Shown here: positions 18,913 through 64,000 of the stretch, piece by piece | Position numbering within the stretch: the stretch's first letter is position 1 | Layout: each line of letters starts with the position of its first letter | NCBI RefSeq assembly: GCF_009914755.1 | Contig: NC_060927.1 | Origin: the human T2T-CHM13v2.0 reference genome, Homo sapiens | Length of the DNA: 64,000 nt | Direction: 5' to 3' (one strand) | Translations under genes and position numbers: made by a program | Notes under the pieces: model-generated | Databases searched by the model: none | Seen by the model: only the letters and a program-made list of their open reading frames with translations | What the model was told of the DNA's origin: nothing

Positions 18913-19203
18913 TGGCTCACGCTTGTAATTCCAGCACTTCAGGAGGCTGAGGCGGGTGGTTCACTTGAAGTCAGGAGTTCGAGACTAGCCTGGCCAACAT
19001 GAGGAAACCCCGACTCTGCTAAAAATACAAAAATTAGCCAGGTGTGGTGGCATACGCCTGTAATCCCAGCTACTCAAGAGGCCGAGGCACTAGAATCACT
19101 TGAACCCAGGAGGCGGAGGTTGCAGTGAGCGGAGATCATGCCACTGCACTCCAGCCTGGGTGACAGAGAGAGCCTCCATTTCAAAAAACAAACAAACAAA
19201 AAG
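18913..19203 (+). mobile_element. AluS
   Basis: Full Alu with (CAAA)n tail. Confidence 0.9.
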
Positions 19204-19389
19204 AATATTTTTCTGATACTTTAATGATAGAGTGTGCCTAAATAACAAGAGAACAAAACTTTTTTTTCTATTTCTGTTTCTCAATTCCCATCCATATTGC
19301 CCTACCCCTGCCAACCATGACATGTTCTCAACCTGGTTAGCCTGGTCCTATACAGTGAAAAGGATTTTTTTTTTTTTTTTTTTTTTTTT

Positions 19390-19777
19390 GAGCAACAGCG
19401 GCTGTTTATTTCACCTGGGTGCAGGCGGGCTGAGTCCGCAAAAGGAGTCAGCAAAGGGTGGTGGGATTATCATTAGTTCTTATAGGTTTTGGGATGGGCG
19501 GTGGAGTTAAGAACAATGTTTTGGGGGCAGGGGGTGGATCTCACAAAGTACATTCTCAAAGGTGGGGAGATTACAAAGAACCTTCTTAAGGGTGGGGGAG
19601 ACTACAAAGTACATTGATCAGTTAGGCTGGGGCAGAAACAAATCACAATGGTGGAATGTCATCAGTTAAGGCTATTTTCACTCCTTTTTGTGGATCTTCA
19701 GTTACTTCAGGCCATCTAGATGTATACTGCAGGTCACTGGGGATATGATGGCTTGGCTTAGGCTCAGAGGCCTGACA
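19390..19777 (-). mobile_element. HERV-H 3' LTR, U3+R only (LTR7B/type II-like), U5 absent
   Basis: Starts TGTCAGGCCTCTGAGCC after PPT AAGAAGACAGGAA (19778-19790); type II repeats; TATAA ~19480; AATAAA 19405-19410. Confidence 0.9.
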
Positions 19778-20182
19778 TTCCTGTCTTCTTATATTAATAA
19801 GAAAAATAAAACAAAATAGTGGTAAAGTGTTGGGGTGGCGAAAATTTTTGGGGGTTGTATGGAGAGATAATGGGCGATGTTTCTCAGTGCTGCTTCGAGC
19901 GGGATTAGGGGCGGCGTGGGAACCTAGAGTGGGAGAGATTAAGCTGAAGGAAGATTTTGTGGTAAGGGGTGATATTGTGGGGTTGTTAGAAGAAACATTT
20001 GTCATATAGAATGATTGCTGATGGCCTGGATACAGTTTTGGATGAATTGAGAAACTAAACGGAAGATACGAGGTCCGAATAAGAGAAGGAGAAAAACAGG
20101 TATTAAAGGACTAAGAATCGGGAGGACCCAGGACATCCAATTAGAGTGTCCAAGGGGGTCCAAGCGGGGTTAGCGTAATTAC

Positions 20183-20503
20183 TTACTTGGTTGGCAAGCT
20201 TTTAGGCTCTATCTTTGAGTTTTTTTTAATGTCGTCATATACCAGGCCAGATTGATTTAGGTAAAAACAGCACTCTTCATTTAAAAACATAGAGTCCCCC
20301 TTTTTTTTTAGCAGTGAGTAAGTCAATACCTTGGTGATTTTGGAGGAAAGAGAAATACAAAGCCAGCAAAAAGGATTAGAAATGGCTAGGAGAGAGTGAC
20401 TGAGATTGATAGTGTGGTGGAGATAGCTGGAGAGAGGTAGAGGGTGGCATAAGAATGGGAATGAGAATAAGAGTAAGCATAAAAGTAAAGAACAGGACTT
20501 CAT
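20183..20503 (-). pseudogene. HERV-H env remnant: signal-peptide-like start fused by deletion to the TM region
   Basis: FLNEECCFYLNQSGLVYD motif following a frameshifted immunosuppressive-domain/CX6CC region. Confidence 0.8.
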
Positions 20504-20799
20504 CAGGGTGAAACTGTTGGAGGGTACTTTGTCACTGAAGATCTTCTATCCACTTAGAGACTTAAGGGTGGCAGTTTGAGGTAAAACCAGGCACCACTGA
20601 ATACCAAGAGCCTGAGAAACTGCTTGGGTGATTTGACTAGTAAAGGCTGGTCCATTATTGGACTGTATAAAGGTGGGAAGCCCAAACCGAGGAATTATGT
20701 CTGACAGAAGGGAAGAAATGACTGCAGTGGCTTCTTAGACCCTGTGGGAAAGGCCTCTACCCATCCAGTGAAAGTGTCTACCCAGGCCAAGAGTTATTT

Positions 20800-22898
20800 T
20801 AGTTTCCTGACACGAGGCATCTGAGTAAGGTCAATTTGCCAGTCCTGGGTGGGCAAATCCCCGAACTTGATGTGTAGGGAAGGGAGGGGGCCTGAGAAAT
20901 TCTTGAGGAGTAGTAGAATAGCAGATGGAACACTGAGAAGTGATTTCCTTGAGGATAGATTCCCACAATGAAAAGGAAATGAGAGGTTCTAAGAGGCAGG
21001 CTAGCGGCTTGTAACCTACATGGAAGAGGTTATGAAATGACAACAGAATAGAATGGGCCTGTGAGGTTGGAAGGAGATATTTTCTTTGGTCCAGGAACCA
21101 TTTGCCTTGTGCGGGAAGAGATAGGTGGAAGTTTCAGCGAGGGAGTAGGTGGGAGTGGCCCGATGAGAAGGAGAAAAACTGCCGTGAGGGATACAAGTTG
21201 GAACGCTAGCTGCTTTTTTAGCTATCTTATCAGCATAAGCATTGTCCTGAGCAATGGGATCTGATGCCTTTTGATGGCCTTTGCAGTGAATGACTCCATC
21301 TTTCTTTGGAAGTAAAGGGGCCTTGAGAAGAGTTTTTATTAAGGAGGCATTAATGATGGAGGACCCTTGCCTAGTGAGGAAATTTCTTTCTGCCCATATA
21401 ACAGCATGGTGGTGCAGGATGTGAAAGGCATATTTAGAGTCAGTATAAATATTGACGCATAGTCGCTTTGCAAGAGTGAGAGCTCAAGTTAAGGCAGTCA
21501 GTTTGGCTTGCTGAGAGGTAGTGGAGGGGGGCAGAGCGGTAGCCTGAATGATACTATAGCATAGCTTGCCTTTGCTGGTGAGTGGTGATTAGGCCTGGTA
21601 GAACTGCCATCAATAAACCAAGTGTGATCAGGGTGATAAACAGGAATGAAGGAAACATGGGGAAATGGAGTGGATGTCAGGTGGATCAGAGAGATACAGT
21701 CATGGGGGTCAGGTGTGGTATCCAGAATAATGTGTGAGGCTGGAATGAAGTCCGGGCCAGGAACGACGATAACTGTGGGAGACTCAACAAAGAGTGAGTA
21801 CAGCTGAAGAAGCCGGGGAGCAGAAAGTATATGTGTCAGGTGTGAGGAAGAAAATAGATTTTGGAAGTTATGAGAACTGTAGAGAGTGAGTTGAGCATAG
21901 TTTGTGATTTTGAGGGCCTCTAAAAGTATTAAGGCAGCGGCAGCCACTGCACGCAGACGTGAGGGCTAGGCTAAAACAGTAAGGTCAAGTTGTTTGGACA
22001 GAAAGGCTACAGGGCGCAGTCCCGGCTCTTGTGTGAGAACTCCGACCACACAGCCCTGCACTTCGGCTGTATGTAATGAAAAGGGAGTGATGAGTTAGGG
22101 AGAGCCAGTGTGGGAGCAGCTTTTAGGGCTGTTTTTTAAGGAATGGAAAGGGGAGTAGGGAAAGGATTTAGGATCTGTGGGGTCAACTAGGTTTGCTTTT
22201 GTGAGTTTATATAATGGTTTAGTCAGGATGGCAAAACTAGATATCCAAAGGCAGAAGTACCTAACCATGCCCAGGAAGGAAAGGAGTTGTTGTTTTGTAG
22301 AAGGGGTTGGGGTTTGGGAGATTAACCGGACGTGATCAGCAGGGAGAGCACGTGTGTTTTCATGCAGAATTATGTCGAGATAGGTAATGGATGATGAAGA
22401 AATTTGGGTTTGACTAAAGTAATGGGGGCTGTCTGTGAAGCCTTGTGGAGTACAGCCCAGGTAATTTGCTGAGCCTGATGGGTGTCAGGGTCAGTCCAAG
22501 TGAAAGCAAAGAGAGGCTGGGATGAAGGGTGCAAGGAATAGTAAAGAAGACATGTTTGAAATCCAGAATAGAATACTGGGTTGTGGAGAGGTTGTGGAGG
22601 GAGGTATTGAGGATAGGAGAGTATATGGCTTTGGCATCATGGGGTGCATAGGCAAGACAATTTGGTTGATAAGGCACAGATCCTGAACTAACCTGCAAGT
22701 CGTGTCCGGTTTTTGGACAGGTAAAATGGGGGAACTGTAAGAAGAGTTTATAGGCTTTAAAAGGCCATGCTGTAACAGGCGAGTGATAACAGGCTTTAAT
22801 CCTTTTAAAGCATGCTGTGGGATGGGATATTGGCATTGAGCAGGGTAAGGGTGATTAGGTTTTAATGGGATGGTAAGGGGTGCATGATCGGTCACCAA
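20800..22898 (-). pseudogene. HERV-H pol remnants (RT N-terminus, RNase H, integrase pieces), frameshifted and deleted
   Basis: QYPIP...SPILPVQKPD...RLVQDL (RT); TWFIDGSS (RNase H); CSICYSTTP (integrase zinc-binding region). Confidence 0.88.
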
Positions 22899-22916
22899 GG
22901 AGGGAGTAGAGGTGTC

Positions 22917-23276
22917 CTATACTTGTGGTTTAAGGTGGGGAGATACAAGGAGAGGATGTGAAGGAGGCTTTGAACTGGAGAAAAGGGCGGCAATGAGGTG
23001 TGGCTGTAGCCCAGGAATAGTCAGGGAAGCAGATAATTTAGTTAAAATGTCTTGACCTAATAAGGGAGCTGGGCAGGTGGGGATAACTAAAAAGGAGTGC
23101 ATAAAAGAATGTTGTCCAAGTTGGCACCAGAGTTGGGGAGTTTTAAGAGATTTAGAAGCCTGGCCGTCAATACCCACAACAGTTATGGAGGCAAGGGAAA
23201 CAGGCCCTTCAAAAGAAGGTAATGTGGAGTAGGTAGCCTCCGTATTGATTAAGAAGGGGATGGACTTACCCTCCAC
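22917..23276 (-). pseudogene. HERV-H protease, catalytically dead
   Basis: FLINTEATYS in place of FLIDTGA; LLGQDIL motif. Confidence 0.85.
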
Positions 23277-23424
23277 TGTAAGAATTACCTAAAGCATCTG
23301 TGATGGTCCAGGAGGCTTCCGAGGCGATCGGGCAGTGTCAGTCTTCAGCCGCTAAGCCGAGAAGATCTGGGAAGGGGCCTTGGGCCAGAGTTCCAGGGGC
23401 TCTGGGAGTGGCTGCCGGGCGAGT

Positions 23425-24570
23425 TGGACAGTCCGATTTCCAGTGGGGTCCCGCACAGATGGGACATGGCTTGGGAGGAATCCCGGGCTGCGGGCATTCC
23501 TTGGCCCAGTGGCCAGATTTCCGGCACTTGTAGCAAGCTCCTGGGGTGGGGGGAGGTTCTGGAGGAACCCCTGGCAGCTGCGGTTCAGGTGTTTGGAGTT
23601 CTTGTGTGCTGGAGATGTGGCTGGGGTTTGTCTCACAGTGGAGGCAAGGAATTACAACTTAGAAATACATTGCTACTTGGCTGCCTCTACTCTATTATTG
23701 TACACCTTGAAGGCGAGGTTAATTAAGTCCTGTTGTGGGGTTTCATAATTTTTGGAGCTTTATTTAATATCGGGAGCAGATTGGGTAATAAAATAAAATG
23801 CATATTGAGAATAAGACGGCCTTCTGACCTTACAGGGTCTAGGGCTATAAAGCATCTCAGGGTTGCTGCCAAACGGGCCATGAACTGGGCTGGGTTTTTA
23901 TATTTGATGAAAAAGAGCCTAAACGCTATCTGATTTGGGATAAAGAAAAAAGAGCACTAACCTTGACTATGCCTTTAGCTCCAGCCACCCTTTAAAGAGG
24001 AAATTGCTGGGCAGGTTGGGGAGGGCTAGTCACGGAATGAAACTGTAAGCCAGACCGGTGTGAGGAGGGGAGGTGATAGAAGGATTATAGGGTCGGGGAG
24101 CAGAGGCTGAGGAAGAATTGGGACCTGGCTTGGCCTGGCGAGGAGCAGCCTGGGGAGAAGGGGAGAGGTCACATGAGTCCATAGAAAAGAAGGATTCAAA
24201 GGACTCAGAGCTTGGGGTGGAGACTGAAGGAACAGACAGGAGAGAAAGAAGAAAGATTTGGGATGAGTCGCATTGGGAGCAGAGACTAGGGAGGGACCGA
24301 CGTGTAAAAGAATGCCTGGATGTCAGGCACCTCAGACCATTTGCCCATTTTTTGACAAAAATTATCTAGGTCTTGTAGGATGGAGAAATCAAAAGTGCCA
24401 TTTTCTGGCCATTTAGAACCATTGTCGTGTTTGTATTGGGGCCAAGCAGTGTTGCAGAAGAAAATAAGACGCTTAGATTTTAGGTCAGGCAAGAGTTGAA
24501 GAGGTTTTAAGTTCTTGAGAACATAGGCTAAGGGAAAAGGAGGAATGAAGGGTGGAAGGTTGCCCATGGT
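23425..24570 (-). pseudogene. HERV-H gag remnant (MA N-terminus, NC zinc knuckles)
   Basis: MGNLPP...FFCNTAWPQY...WPENGTFD; [14 protein letters not shown] and [13 protein letters not shown] at ~23425-23535. Confidence 0.88.
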
Positions 24571-25122
24571 GAAGGAGGCAAGTTTAAAGAGAAGGGTAGA
24601 GACACGGAGAAAGGGGGCGGGCAGCAGCCCCAGGCTGCAGCGTGGGTGAGCAGCCAAAGCAGGTGTCCCTGCAATTGACTTGCCACCAAGGGAATGTGGG
24701 TGAATGACCAAGGCAGGCGTCCCTGCGGAGATCAGACACCAATGGAACGTGGGCGAATAATCAGAGAGGCATCCCCGCAGTGATTAAACACCAAGGAAAG
24801 GCTGTCTTCCCGAGTCCGTGACAGACGCCGGAGTTTTGGGTCCACGGATAAAAGGTGTCTCCTTTGTCTCTACCAGAAAATGAAAGGAATTGAAATTAAG
24901 AGAAGGGAGAGATTGAAGGATGGCTCCAAGATTGAAAGGAGAAAGAGGTTGAGGGATAGTGAGAGAGGTTGGAGAAGAGAGTAAAAAGAGGCCACTTACC
25001 CAATTTAAAATCAGTGAGATGTTCCTTGGGCTGGTTGGTCTGAGGACCCGAGGTTGTAGGTGGATCTCTTCATGGAGTGAGGGTGAGGACAGGGGACTGG
25101 TCTCCCGAAGGAGTCCCACTGA

Positions 25123-25140
25123 CCCGGGTCTTTGGCACCA
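25123..25140 (-). other. HERV-H primer-binding site, aberrant and Phe-like
   Basis: TGGTGCCAAAGACCCGGG located 2 nt after the U5 end. Confidence 0.75.
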
Positions 25141-25142
25141 AG

Positions 25143-25248
25143 TGTCTCACGTGTCTGTGTGAAGAGACCACTAAACAGGCTTTGTGTGAGCCACAAGGCT
25201 GTTTATTTCACCTGGTGCAGGCGGGCTGAGTCTGAAAAAGGAGTCAGC
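25143..25248 (-). mobile_element. HERV-H 5' LTR, R+U5 only (no U3)
   Basis: GCTGACTCC...AATAAACAGCC...GGTCTCTTCACACAGACACGTGAGACA; homology to the 3' LTR stops exactly at GCTGAC. Confidence 0.9.
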
Positions 25249-25444
25249 CGGATTTCTTTTGATGAGTTATACATTCATTATTTTTTTCCCTCCATCTCAC
25301 CAAGAAAGATGAATTAGCAATTTAAAAACATCAACTCTGCAAGAGACCTACCCATGAACCAGCTAAGGCTGTGGTTCTCAAAGTGTGGTCCGGGGACCAG
25401 GACCATCACCATCACCTGGGAACTTGTTAGAAGTGCTCATTCTT

Positions 25445-62948: not shown

Positions 62949-64000
<1,052 letters not shown>

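What the first reader, a model, noticed from the sequence alone, without database searches (positions are those of the whole stretch)
19362..25262. Full-length HERV-H RNA retroposed by LINE-1 machinery rather than integrated as a provirus
Seen: the 5' end has only R-U5 (25143-25248) and the 3' end only U3-R (19390-19777), which is the layout of the viral transcript. AATAAA (19405-19410) is followed 15 nt later by A25. The flanks carry an ~11-bp duplication GGATTT(T/C)TTTT (19362.. and 25250-25260) ending in TTTT/GA, not a short integrase TSD outside complete TG...CA LTRs. Known: these are hallmarks of L1 target-primed reverse transcription; such retrocopies are common for HERV-W but, to my knowledge, rarely described for HERV-H. 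Inference: L1 ORF2p copied a ~5.9 kb unspliced HERV-H RNA end to end, so both elements were co-expressed in a germline or early embryonic cell, and automated annotation would probably mislabel this as an ordinary truncated provirus.
Basis: partly seen in the sequence, partly recalled or inferred. Interest (0 to 1): 0.85.

Follow-up and report, generated by a model that had tools for sequence, protein, structure and literature searches.

The report
HERV-H RNA copied in by LINE-1
This is a 5.9-kb DNA copy of a complete, unspliced HERV-H retroviral transcript that the LINE-1 machinery pasted into an intron of MAP3K13, one of several dozen such copies in the human genome, a route that reviews usually credit only to HERV-W.

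Summary
On the minus strand the element starts at the first base of R (25248), after one extra G (25249). It has no U3 at the 5' end. It ends in the 3' LTR 15 nt after AATAAA, in a run of 25 A (19389-19365), with no U5. An 11-bp duplication with one mismatch flanks it, and the target reads TTTT/GA.

Nine other LTR copies place both breakpoints at the transcription start and the poly(A) site. The interior is a collinear, stop-riddled gag-pro-pol-env. Its only named relative is a HERV-H Env.

LINE-1 retroposition is the best reading (0.93). The locus is not unique. The genome has 49 places where this R region runs into poly(A), against 0 for a reversed control pattern. Of 30 I inspected, 17 have 11-19-bp duplications and 13 run from R start to tail.

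Ten full-text searches found no description of this for HERV-H, but the primary 2002 paper was not readable. No primate genome was available for an empty-site test, and no close donor survives (best 89-90%). Verdict: a real new member of a known kind, of moderate interest.

The parts
25250..25260 (-). 5' copy of the target-site duplication (AAAAGAAATCC). It is preceded by TC, so the nicked strand reads TTTT/GA.
25249..25249 (-). Single G between the flank and R. It is absent from the 3' flank (T there) and from this element's own 3' LTR (T at that position). It is probably copied from the RNA cap.
   Evidence: the same extra G appears in 9 further R-start copies
25187..25248 (-). 5' R, 62 nt. 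Its first base aligns with the base 32 nt downstream of the TATA box in full LTRs. It contains AATAAA at 25207-25202.
25143..25186 (-). U5, 44 nt, ending GTGAGACA.
25134..25140 (-). Start of the primer-binding site (TGGTGCC), two bases after the LTR end. The tRNA type was not tested.
19778..25133 (-). Unspliced internal region, collinear gag-pro-pol-env broken by many stops. Pfam hits, with the curated bit-score cut-off in brackets where the hit falls below it: weak Gag_MA (24289-24783; 19.5 bits, cut-off 30); zinc knuckle (23341-23658); protease (22920-23288); RNase H (21019-21483); weak integrase core (20549-20734; 22.4 bits, cut-off 32.6); Env TM fragment (20186-20545). The leader splice donor used by spliced sister copies (about 25003-25000) is retained unspliced.
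   Evidence: only named hit: HERV-H_2q24.1 Env, E 1.8e-23; collinearity
19453..19777 (-). Complete U3, 325 nt, starting TGTCAGG, with TATAAGAAC at 19484-19476. It is preceded by a purine tract (about 19790-19778).
19389..19452 (-). 3' R, ending ...GTTGCTCA, with AATAAA at 19410-19405. Full LTRs continue into U5 at exactly this point.
19365..19389 (-). Uninterrupted run of 25 A. The first A may be the last templated base. This is the poly(A) tail.
19362..19372 (-). 3' copy of the duplication (AAAAAAAATCC). Its A-rich part overlaps the tail.

Best explanation
A capped, polyadenylated, unspliced full-length HERV-H RNA was reverse-transcribed by LINE-1 ORF2p directly at a nick in chromosomal DNA (target-primed reverse transcription). 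The RNA had been transcribed from the R start of a donor's 5' LTR and cleaved at the poly(A) site of its 3' LTR. The nick was at TTTT/GA in what is now an intron of MAP3K13, antisense to the gene. Copying ran to the very 5' end, probably including the cap (the extra G). Second-strand cleavage about 11 bp away produced the flanking duplication.

Shown here: the RNA-shaped ends, the tail, the duplication, the nick-site sequence, and a family of sister copies with the same ends.

Inferred: that the enzyme was LINE-1, that the event took place in the germ line or early embryo, and that it is old (tens of millions of years).

The product has no U3 promoter at its 5' end, so it should be transcriptionally inert unless read from outside.
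For: 1. Ends. The 5' copy starts at the same column as GCTGACTC, which in all 10 U3-bearing rows of the alignment follows ...CCCTTT. The 3' copy turns into A25 where 7 of 9 other copies continue into U5.

2. Signals. TATA lies 32 nt before the start, and AATAAA 15 nt before the tail.

3. Duplication. It is 11 bp with 1 mismatch, and the chance per position is about 3e-5. The nick motif is TTTT/GA.

4. No integrase signature. There is no TG...CA pair of LTR ends with a short duplication.

5. Class evidence.
- The R-plus-poly(A) pattern gives 99 matches, which I count as 49 places. The reversed control gives 0.
- All 30 of the 30 places I inspected have A-rich tails at the site.
- 17 of the 30 have 11-19-bp duplications that start A/G-rich.
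- 13 of the 30 start at R, 5 are clearly 5'-truncated with a duplication, and some are spliced.
- 10 of the 13 R-start copies carry a 5' G that is absent from the target.

6. These are the three criteria used for HERV-W processed pseudogenes (PMC5016936, passage).
Against: - The informative part of the duplication is short: TCC plus an A-rich flank with one G/A mismatch.
- The nick site is a variant (TTTT/GA), not the canonical TTTT/AA.
- No empty orthologous site could be examined.
- The first 155 nt or so of the 3' flank are unique, so no paralogue serves as a stand-in for the empty site.
- A pure A25 is surprisingly intact for an element whose nearest relatives are only 93% (LTR) and 89-90% (pol region) identical.
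- No donor can be named.
- The extra G could be templated if the donor carried the minority LTR variant that has G at that position. That variant, with U3 upstream, was seen in 18 of 30 loci sampled.
Confidence: 0.93

Rival explanations
1. An ordinary integrase-made provirus whose 5' U3 and 3' U5 were later deleted, next to a chance A-tract.
For: Truncated HERV-H proviruses are common. The duplication carries little information beyond TCC.
Against: - Two independent deletions would have to end exactly at the transcription start and at the poly(A) cleavage site.
- The A25 would have to sit exactly there by chance.
- 12 other loci show the same pair of ends with 11-16-bp duplications.
- The reversed pattern has 0 genome matches against 99 for the real one.
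Confidence: 0.02
2. The HERV-H RNA, or a cDNA of it, was captured without LINE-1 endonuclease. Examples are insertion at a double-strand break, or a cDNA made by another reverse transcriptase.
For: The enzyme is not identified by sequence. The nick motif is a variant, and one duplication base mismatches.
Against: - By my recollection, endonuclease-independent insertions usually lack duplications and often lack full tails. Here the tail, the duplication and a T-rich nick are all present.
- The sister copies' duplications all start with A/G-rich runs, usually after T.
- Retroviral reverse transcription does not copy the poly(A) tail. This is established knowledge and was not tested here.
Confidence: 0.04
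3. The retroposition happened elsewhere, and this locus is a later DNA-level duplicate of that copy.
For: Two of the sister loci (L020 and L021, same contig) are duplicates of each other, flanks included.
Against: No other place matches this element above 93% in the LTR or 90% in the pol region. The adjacent 3' flank has only its own match in the genome.
Confidence: 0.01

Closest known systems
HERV-W (LTR17/HERV17) processed pseudogenes made by LINE-1
   Same: The anatomy is the same: R-U5 at the 5' end, U3-R at the 3' end, a poly(A) tail, a T-rich insertion motif and a variable duplication of 5-15 bp (criteria quoted in PMC5016936, passage).
   Different: It is a different retroviral family. 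The share is also far lower. 135 of 213 HERV-W elements are pseudogenes (PMC5016936). Here 49 R-plus-poly(A) places stand against 1,938 matches of the normal R-U5 junction with the same R motif.
Ordinary HERV-H provirus (LTR-gag-pro-pol-env-LTR)
   Same: The internal sequence and LTR sequence match. The element is collinear with many genomic copies at 86-93% identity.
   Different: It lacks the 5' U3 and the 3' U5, carries a tail, and has an 11-bp rather than a short integrase duplication. It therefore has no promoter of its own.
Cellular processed pseudogenes (for example RPL4P4, listed by the hub at 62977-64412 of this window)
   Same: The presumed mechanism and hallmarks are the same: tail, duplication, start at the RNA's 5' end.
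   Different: The template is a 5.9-kb unspliced retroviral RNA, not a spliced mRNA. I did not examine RPL4P4.
Spliced HERV-H copies in genomic DNA (Goodchild, Freeman and Mager 1995; seen only as a reference-list entry, content recalled)
   Same: Both are HERV-H transcripts re-entering the genome. I also found spliced copies (L023, L031).
   Different: As I recall it, that work argued for retroviral-type retrotransposition. The copies found here carry tails and, in L023, a 15-bp duplication. I could not read the paper.

Membership tests
LINE-1-mediated processed pseudogene of a HERV transcript | The 5' end is R-U5 and starts at the transcription start, with no U3. | tested here: met
   Homology starts at 25248, the column after ...CCCTTT in 10 of 10 U3-bearing rows. 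This is 32 nt after the TATA box.
LINE-1-mediated processed pseudogene of a HERV transcript | The 3' end is U3-R and stops at the LTR's poly(A) site, with no U5. | tested here: met
   The copy ends at ...GTTGCTCA, 15 nt after AATAAA. At this point 7 of 9 comparison copies continue into U5.
LINE-1-mediated processed pseudogene of a HERV transcript | A poly(A) tail. | tested here: met
   25 uninterrupted A at 19389-19365.
LINE-1-mediated processed pseudogene of a HERV transcript | A variable-length target-site duplication (5-15 bp or more). | tested here: met
   11 bp with 1 mismatch, and about 3e-5 chance per position. The information content is modest because the 3' copy overlaps the tail.
LINE-1-mediated processed pseudogene of a HERV transcript | A TT/AAAA-type insertion motif. 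| tested here: met
   TC/AAAAG on the element strand, which is TTTT/GA on the nicked strand: one base off the consensus.
LINE-1-mediated processed pseudogene of a HERV transcript | An empty orthologous site with a single copy of the duplicated sequence. | not testable with these tools
   No primate genome is held. The flank is single-copy, so there is no paralogous proxy.
HERV-H | Sequence relationship to named HERV-H genes. | tested here: met
   The Env-fragment ORF (20186-20545) gave 16 hits. The only named one is HERV-H_2q24.1 provirus ancestral Env, with E 1.8e-23 and 47% identity over 88% of the query.
HERV-H | Gammaretrovirus-type gene order and a high-copy LTR family. | tested here: met
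   Gag_MA, zinc knuckle, protease, RNase H, integrase and Env TM hits lie in order (Gag_MA at 19.5 bits and integrase core at 22.4 bits fall below Pfam's curated cut-offs of 30 and 32.6 bits). The LTR query had 2,702 first-look candidates. The R-U5 junction has 1,938 matches.
   No Dfam/Repbase consensus is held. At least two U3 types occur among the retrocopies. Only TGGTGCC was read at the primer-binding site.

The most novel reading that the evidence does not exclude
HERV-H, not only HERV-W, has a LINE-1-dependent lineage.

- There are at least 49 tailed copies in T2T-CHM13, about 2.5% of the R regions carrying this motif.
- At least 13 run from the cap site to the tail.
- They comprise unspliced genomic RNAs (this locus and about nine others), spliced forms and a 65-nt R-only RNA.
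- 10 of the 13 bear an extra 5' G consistent with cap copying.

These copies would be a fossil record of the start site, cleavage sites and isoforms of HERV-H RNA in the ancestral germ line or early embryo. As a class they would be undescribed in print.
Probability: 0.35. Interest if true: 0.55.

Novelty: new member of a known kind. Interest (0 to 1): 0.42.

Why it matters
Reviews state that HERV-W is the sole HERV group mobilised by LINE-1, or the only one commonly copied by it (PMC5537654 abstract; PMC3758188 passage). A large HERV survey did not separate processed pseudogenes from proviruses (PMC4724089 passage).

This locus and its sisters show that HERV-H RNA also took this route. Three consequences follow:
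- Counts of HERV-H 'proviruses' include promoterless retrocopies. Dating them by LTR-LTR divergence is invalid, because the two R copies come from one RNA.
- The copies pin the transcription start and two poly(A) cleavage positions of the LTR at base resolution.
- They record that HERV-H RNA and LINE-1 proteins met in heritable cells. This fits, but does not prove, the early-embryonic expression known for HERV-H today.

None of this is surprising in principle, because LINE-1 can copy any polyadenylated RNA.

Tried and rejected
- **Donor search.** The LTR and a 1.8-kb pol segment find no copy closer than 93% and 90%. No donor can be named.
- **Empty-site proxy.** The adjacent 3' flank is single-copy, so no paralogue shows the pre-insertion state. 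Only window 19100-19207 is repetitive.
- **Bulk fetch.** I fetched smaller stretches instead. As a result 19 of the 49 places were seen only as matched strings. The 5' ends of L016, L017, L022 and L026 stay undetermined.
- **No duplication found.** None was found for L014, L019, L020, L021, L027, L029, L031, L032 and L040.
- **Literature.** None describes LINE-1 copies of HERV-H.
- **Papers not held.** Pavlicek 2002 and Jern 2005 are not held. Costas 2002, Belshaw 2005 and Goodchild 1995 were not seen. Any of these may already mention such copies.
- **Not possible here.** LTR7 subfamily naming and a check of repeat annotation could not be done.
Full report
**What is there**

Read on the minus strand (coordinates fixed), the order of features is:
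- flank, then AAAAGAAATCC (25260-25250) and a single G (25249);
- R (25248-25187, 62 nt, with AATAAA at 25207-25202) and U5 (25186-25143, ending GTGAGACA);
- two bases, then TGGTGCC (25140-25134);
- about 5.3 kb of internal sequence and a purine tract;
- U3 starting TGTCAGG (19777) with TATAAGAAC (19484-19476);
- R (19452-19389, with AATAAA at 19410-19405);
- a run of 25 A (19389-19365), then TCC (19364-19362) and flank.

**Are the breakpoints the RNA's ends?**

I searched the 3' LTR against the assembly the window lies in (2,702 first-look candidates, 40 scored, best non-self 93%). I then aligned both ends with nine of those copies.
- In all 10 rows that carry U3, GCTGACTC follows ...CCCTTT. 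The window's 5' copy begins at exactly that G, with unrelated sequence before it.
- At the other end, 7 of the 9 comparison copies continue past ...GTTGCTCA into U5. The window's copy continues into A25.
- Of the other two, L002 also runs into poly(A). L009 runs into a (CA) repeat and unrelated sequence.
- The start lies 32 nt after the TATA box and the tail 15 nt after AATAAA. These are the distances expected for an RNA polymerase II start and cleavage site (established knowledge).

The element is therefore shaped like the transcript, R-U5 ... U3-R-An, not like a provirus.

**Is it HERV-H, and is it unspliced?**

ORFs on the minus strand give Pfam hits in retroviral order:
- weak Gag_MA (19.5 bits, below the curated cut-off of 30);
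- zinc knuckle (E 8e-9);
- protease (6e-9);
- RNase H (6e-11);
- weak integrase core (22.4 bits, below the cut-off of 32.6);
- a short Env TM fragment (4e-6).

The frames are broken by many stops. The Env-fragment ORF gave 16 hits among longer proteins. The only named one is 'HERV-H_2q24.1 provirus ancestral Env polyprotein' (E 1.8e-23, 47% identity over 88% of the query).

The whole length is collinear with other genomic copies. It keeps the leader splice donor that spliced sister copies use (about window 25003-25000). It also contains two stretches that most sister retrocopies lack (about window 22261-22051 and 21552-21013) but that many proviruses have. I read it as a copy of a less-deleted genomic RNA.

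**The duplication and target**

The 5' flank's last 11 bases recur at the 3' end with one G/A mismatch, the A-rich part merging with the tail.
- The 11-mer with up to one mismatch occurs 5 times in the window, against 3.5 expected. The chance at one given position is therefore about 3e-5.
- Only TCC and the A-richness of the upstream flank are truly informative.
- TC precedes the duplication, so the nicked strand reads TTTT/GA, one base from the LINE-1 endonuclease consensus (consensus as quoted in PMC5016936).
- There is no TG...CA LTR pair with a short integrase duplication.

**The extra G**

The G at 25249 is not in the target, where the base after the 3' duplication is T. It is not in this element's own 3' LTR either, which has T before GCTGACTC.

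I recall that untemplated 5' G residues are a known mark of cap copying in LINE-1-mediated insertions. That literature was not checked here.

One caution applies. A minority of LTRs have G at that position natively. Of the first 30 of 77 genome matches to the G-plus-R-start motif:
- 18 have U3 upstream;
- 9 have non-LTR flank, this locus among them;
- 2 have an inverted R;
- 1 is unrelated.

A donor of that variant would make the G templated.

**A class, not a singleton**

A pattern for the R end followed by ten A (one mismatch allowed) has 99 matches in the genome and 0 for the reversed control. I count 49 distinct places. The same R motif followed by the normal U5 start has 1,938 matches, so about 2.5% of such R regions end in a tail.

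I inspected 30 of the 49: 24 as 3-kb loci and 6 as short fetched ends. All 30 have A-rich tails at the site, starting after ...CTCA or ...CTCAC.

Seventeen of the 30 have flanking duplications of 11-19 bp, all starting A/G-rich:
- this locus;
- L011, L012, L018, L023, L024 and L025;
- L028 and L030;
- L015 and L039;
- six more on contigs 5, 8 (two), 10, 16 and 22.

Thirteen of the 30 start at the first base of R. About ten are long (2.8-9.6 kb). One is spliced to about 0.8 kb (L023). One is R alone, about 65 nt (L025).

Of these 13:
- 10 have a 5' G absent from the target;
- 2 are ambiguous, because a G follows the duplication;
- 1 (L039) starts with T.

In the five for which I had the copy's own 3' LTR, the corresponding base is T or C, never G.

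Five others are clearly 5'-truncated with duplications, as LINE-1 products often are: L011 (at about window 21994), L012, L018 and L024, and probably L029.

For 13 of the 30, no duplication was found or the 5' end was not reached.

**Age and donor**

The nearest relatives are 93% identical in the LTR and 89-90% in pol. No donor is identifiable, and the insertion is probably tens of millions of years old. That age is an inference from divergence, and no rate was computed here.

The two R copies differ at 6 of 63 aligned columns. They derive from the donor's two LTRs through one RNA, so LTR-LTR dating does not apply. The intact A25 is unexpected for that age and remains unexplained.

**Mechanism and rivals**

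LINE-1 target-primed reverse transcription of a full-length capped HERV-H RNA explains every feature (0.93).
- Deletion of a provirus at both ends needs two exact coincidences plus a chance A25, and cannot explain 12 sister loci (0.02).
- Capture without the LINE-1 endonuclease is not excluded by sequence, but fits the duplication and T-rich nick poorly (0.04).
- A DNA-level duplicate of a copy made elsewhere is excluded by the single-copy flank and the lack of any close copy (0.01).

**Compared with what is known**

The anatomy meets the three criteria used for HERV-W processed pseudogenes (PMC5016936, passage). By that paper's count, 135 of 213 HERV-W elements are of this kind.

What the papers I could read say:
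[quoted passage not shown] - A study of HERV-H dimorphism excluded such copies for HERV-W only (PMC6298018, passage).

My 10 searches found no paper describing the route for HERV-H. The 2002 primary paper and the main HERV-H surveys were not held, so prior mention cannot be ruled out. I could not see their supplements either.

**Verdict**

The finding is real and correctly interpreted. It is a new member of a known kind and one of a modest family. It is worth recording but not startling, since LINE-1 copies any polyadenylated RNA. The class-level picture (isoforms, cap-site G, share of about 2.5%) is the more interesting part.

Noticed in passing
L014 (contig 5, about 29.03 Mb), L020 and L021 (contig 9), L040 (contig 3, about 75.44 Mb): These four tailed loci share one junction. 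A tandem array of 37-bp GC-rich units (6.2 copies in L014) is fused to the LTR from about 80 nt into U3, followed by R and poly(A). They look like a small family of composite LINE-1-borne elements, or retrocopies of one chimeric RNA. No duplication was found. One search found no paper naming such a composite.
   Followed up: partly
L025 (contig 14, about 33.49 Mb): A retrocopy of R alone: extra G, about 65 nt of R, tail, and a 13-bp duplication at a perfect TTTT/AA site. It implies a short RNA that started and was polyadenylated within a single LTR.
   Followed up: partly
L023 (contig 12, about 114.0 Mb) and L031 (contig 1, about 25.75 Mb): Spliced, tailed copies. Both leave the leader at the same donor (equivalent to window about 25003-25000) and rejoin just upstream of the 3' LTR through a short middle exon. 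L023 has an R start, an extra G and a 15-bp duplication.
   Followed up: partly
L051 (contig 1, about 53.32 Mb) and L065 (contig 3, about 90.15 Mb): The R start is preceded by an inverted copy of the R/U5 region, a head-to-head junction. The origin is unknown.
   Followed up: no
18 of the 30 loci L050-L079: A minority LTR variant carries G instead of T/C immediately before the R start, with U3 present. Several come as pairs about 5 kb apart, so they are whole proviruses. This matters for reading the extra 5' G of retrocopies.
   Followed up: partly
L052, L055, L066, L067, L072, L074: Six further loci begin with G plus the R start directly after non-LTR sequence, but have no nearby match to the tail pattern. 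They may be more retrocopies with degraded tails. Their 3' ends were not fetched.
   Followed up: no
L020 and L021 (contig 9, about 42.41 and 77.28 Mb): Two tailed loci with identical flanks. One retrocopy was later duplicated at the DNA level.
   Followed up: no
L009 (contig 5, about 169.11 Mb): An LTR copy stops near the same cleavage site but continues into a (CA) repeat and then unrelated sequence that I recall as Alu-like. It is possibly a retrocopy whose tail was replaced.
   Followed up: no
window 19100-19207: This is a high-copy repeat (about 90% identical to dozens of places), lying 155 nt beyond the element's 3' end. The intervening flank is single-copy.
   Followed up: no
window 62977-64000: The hub's table lists RPL4P4, a ribosomal-protein processed pseudogene. 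It is a second presumed LINE-1 product in the same window. I did not examine it.
   Followed up: no
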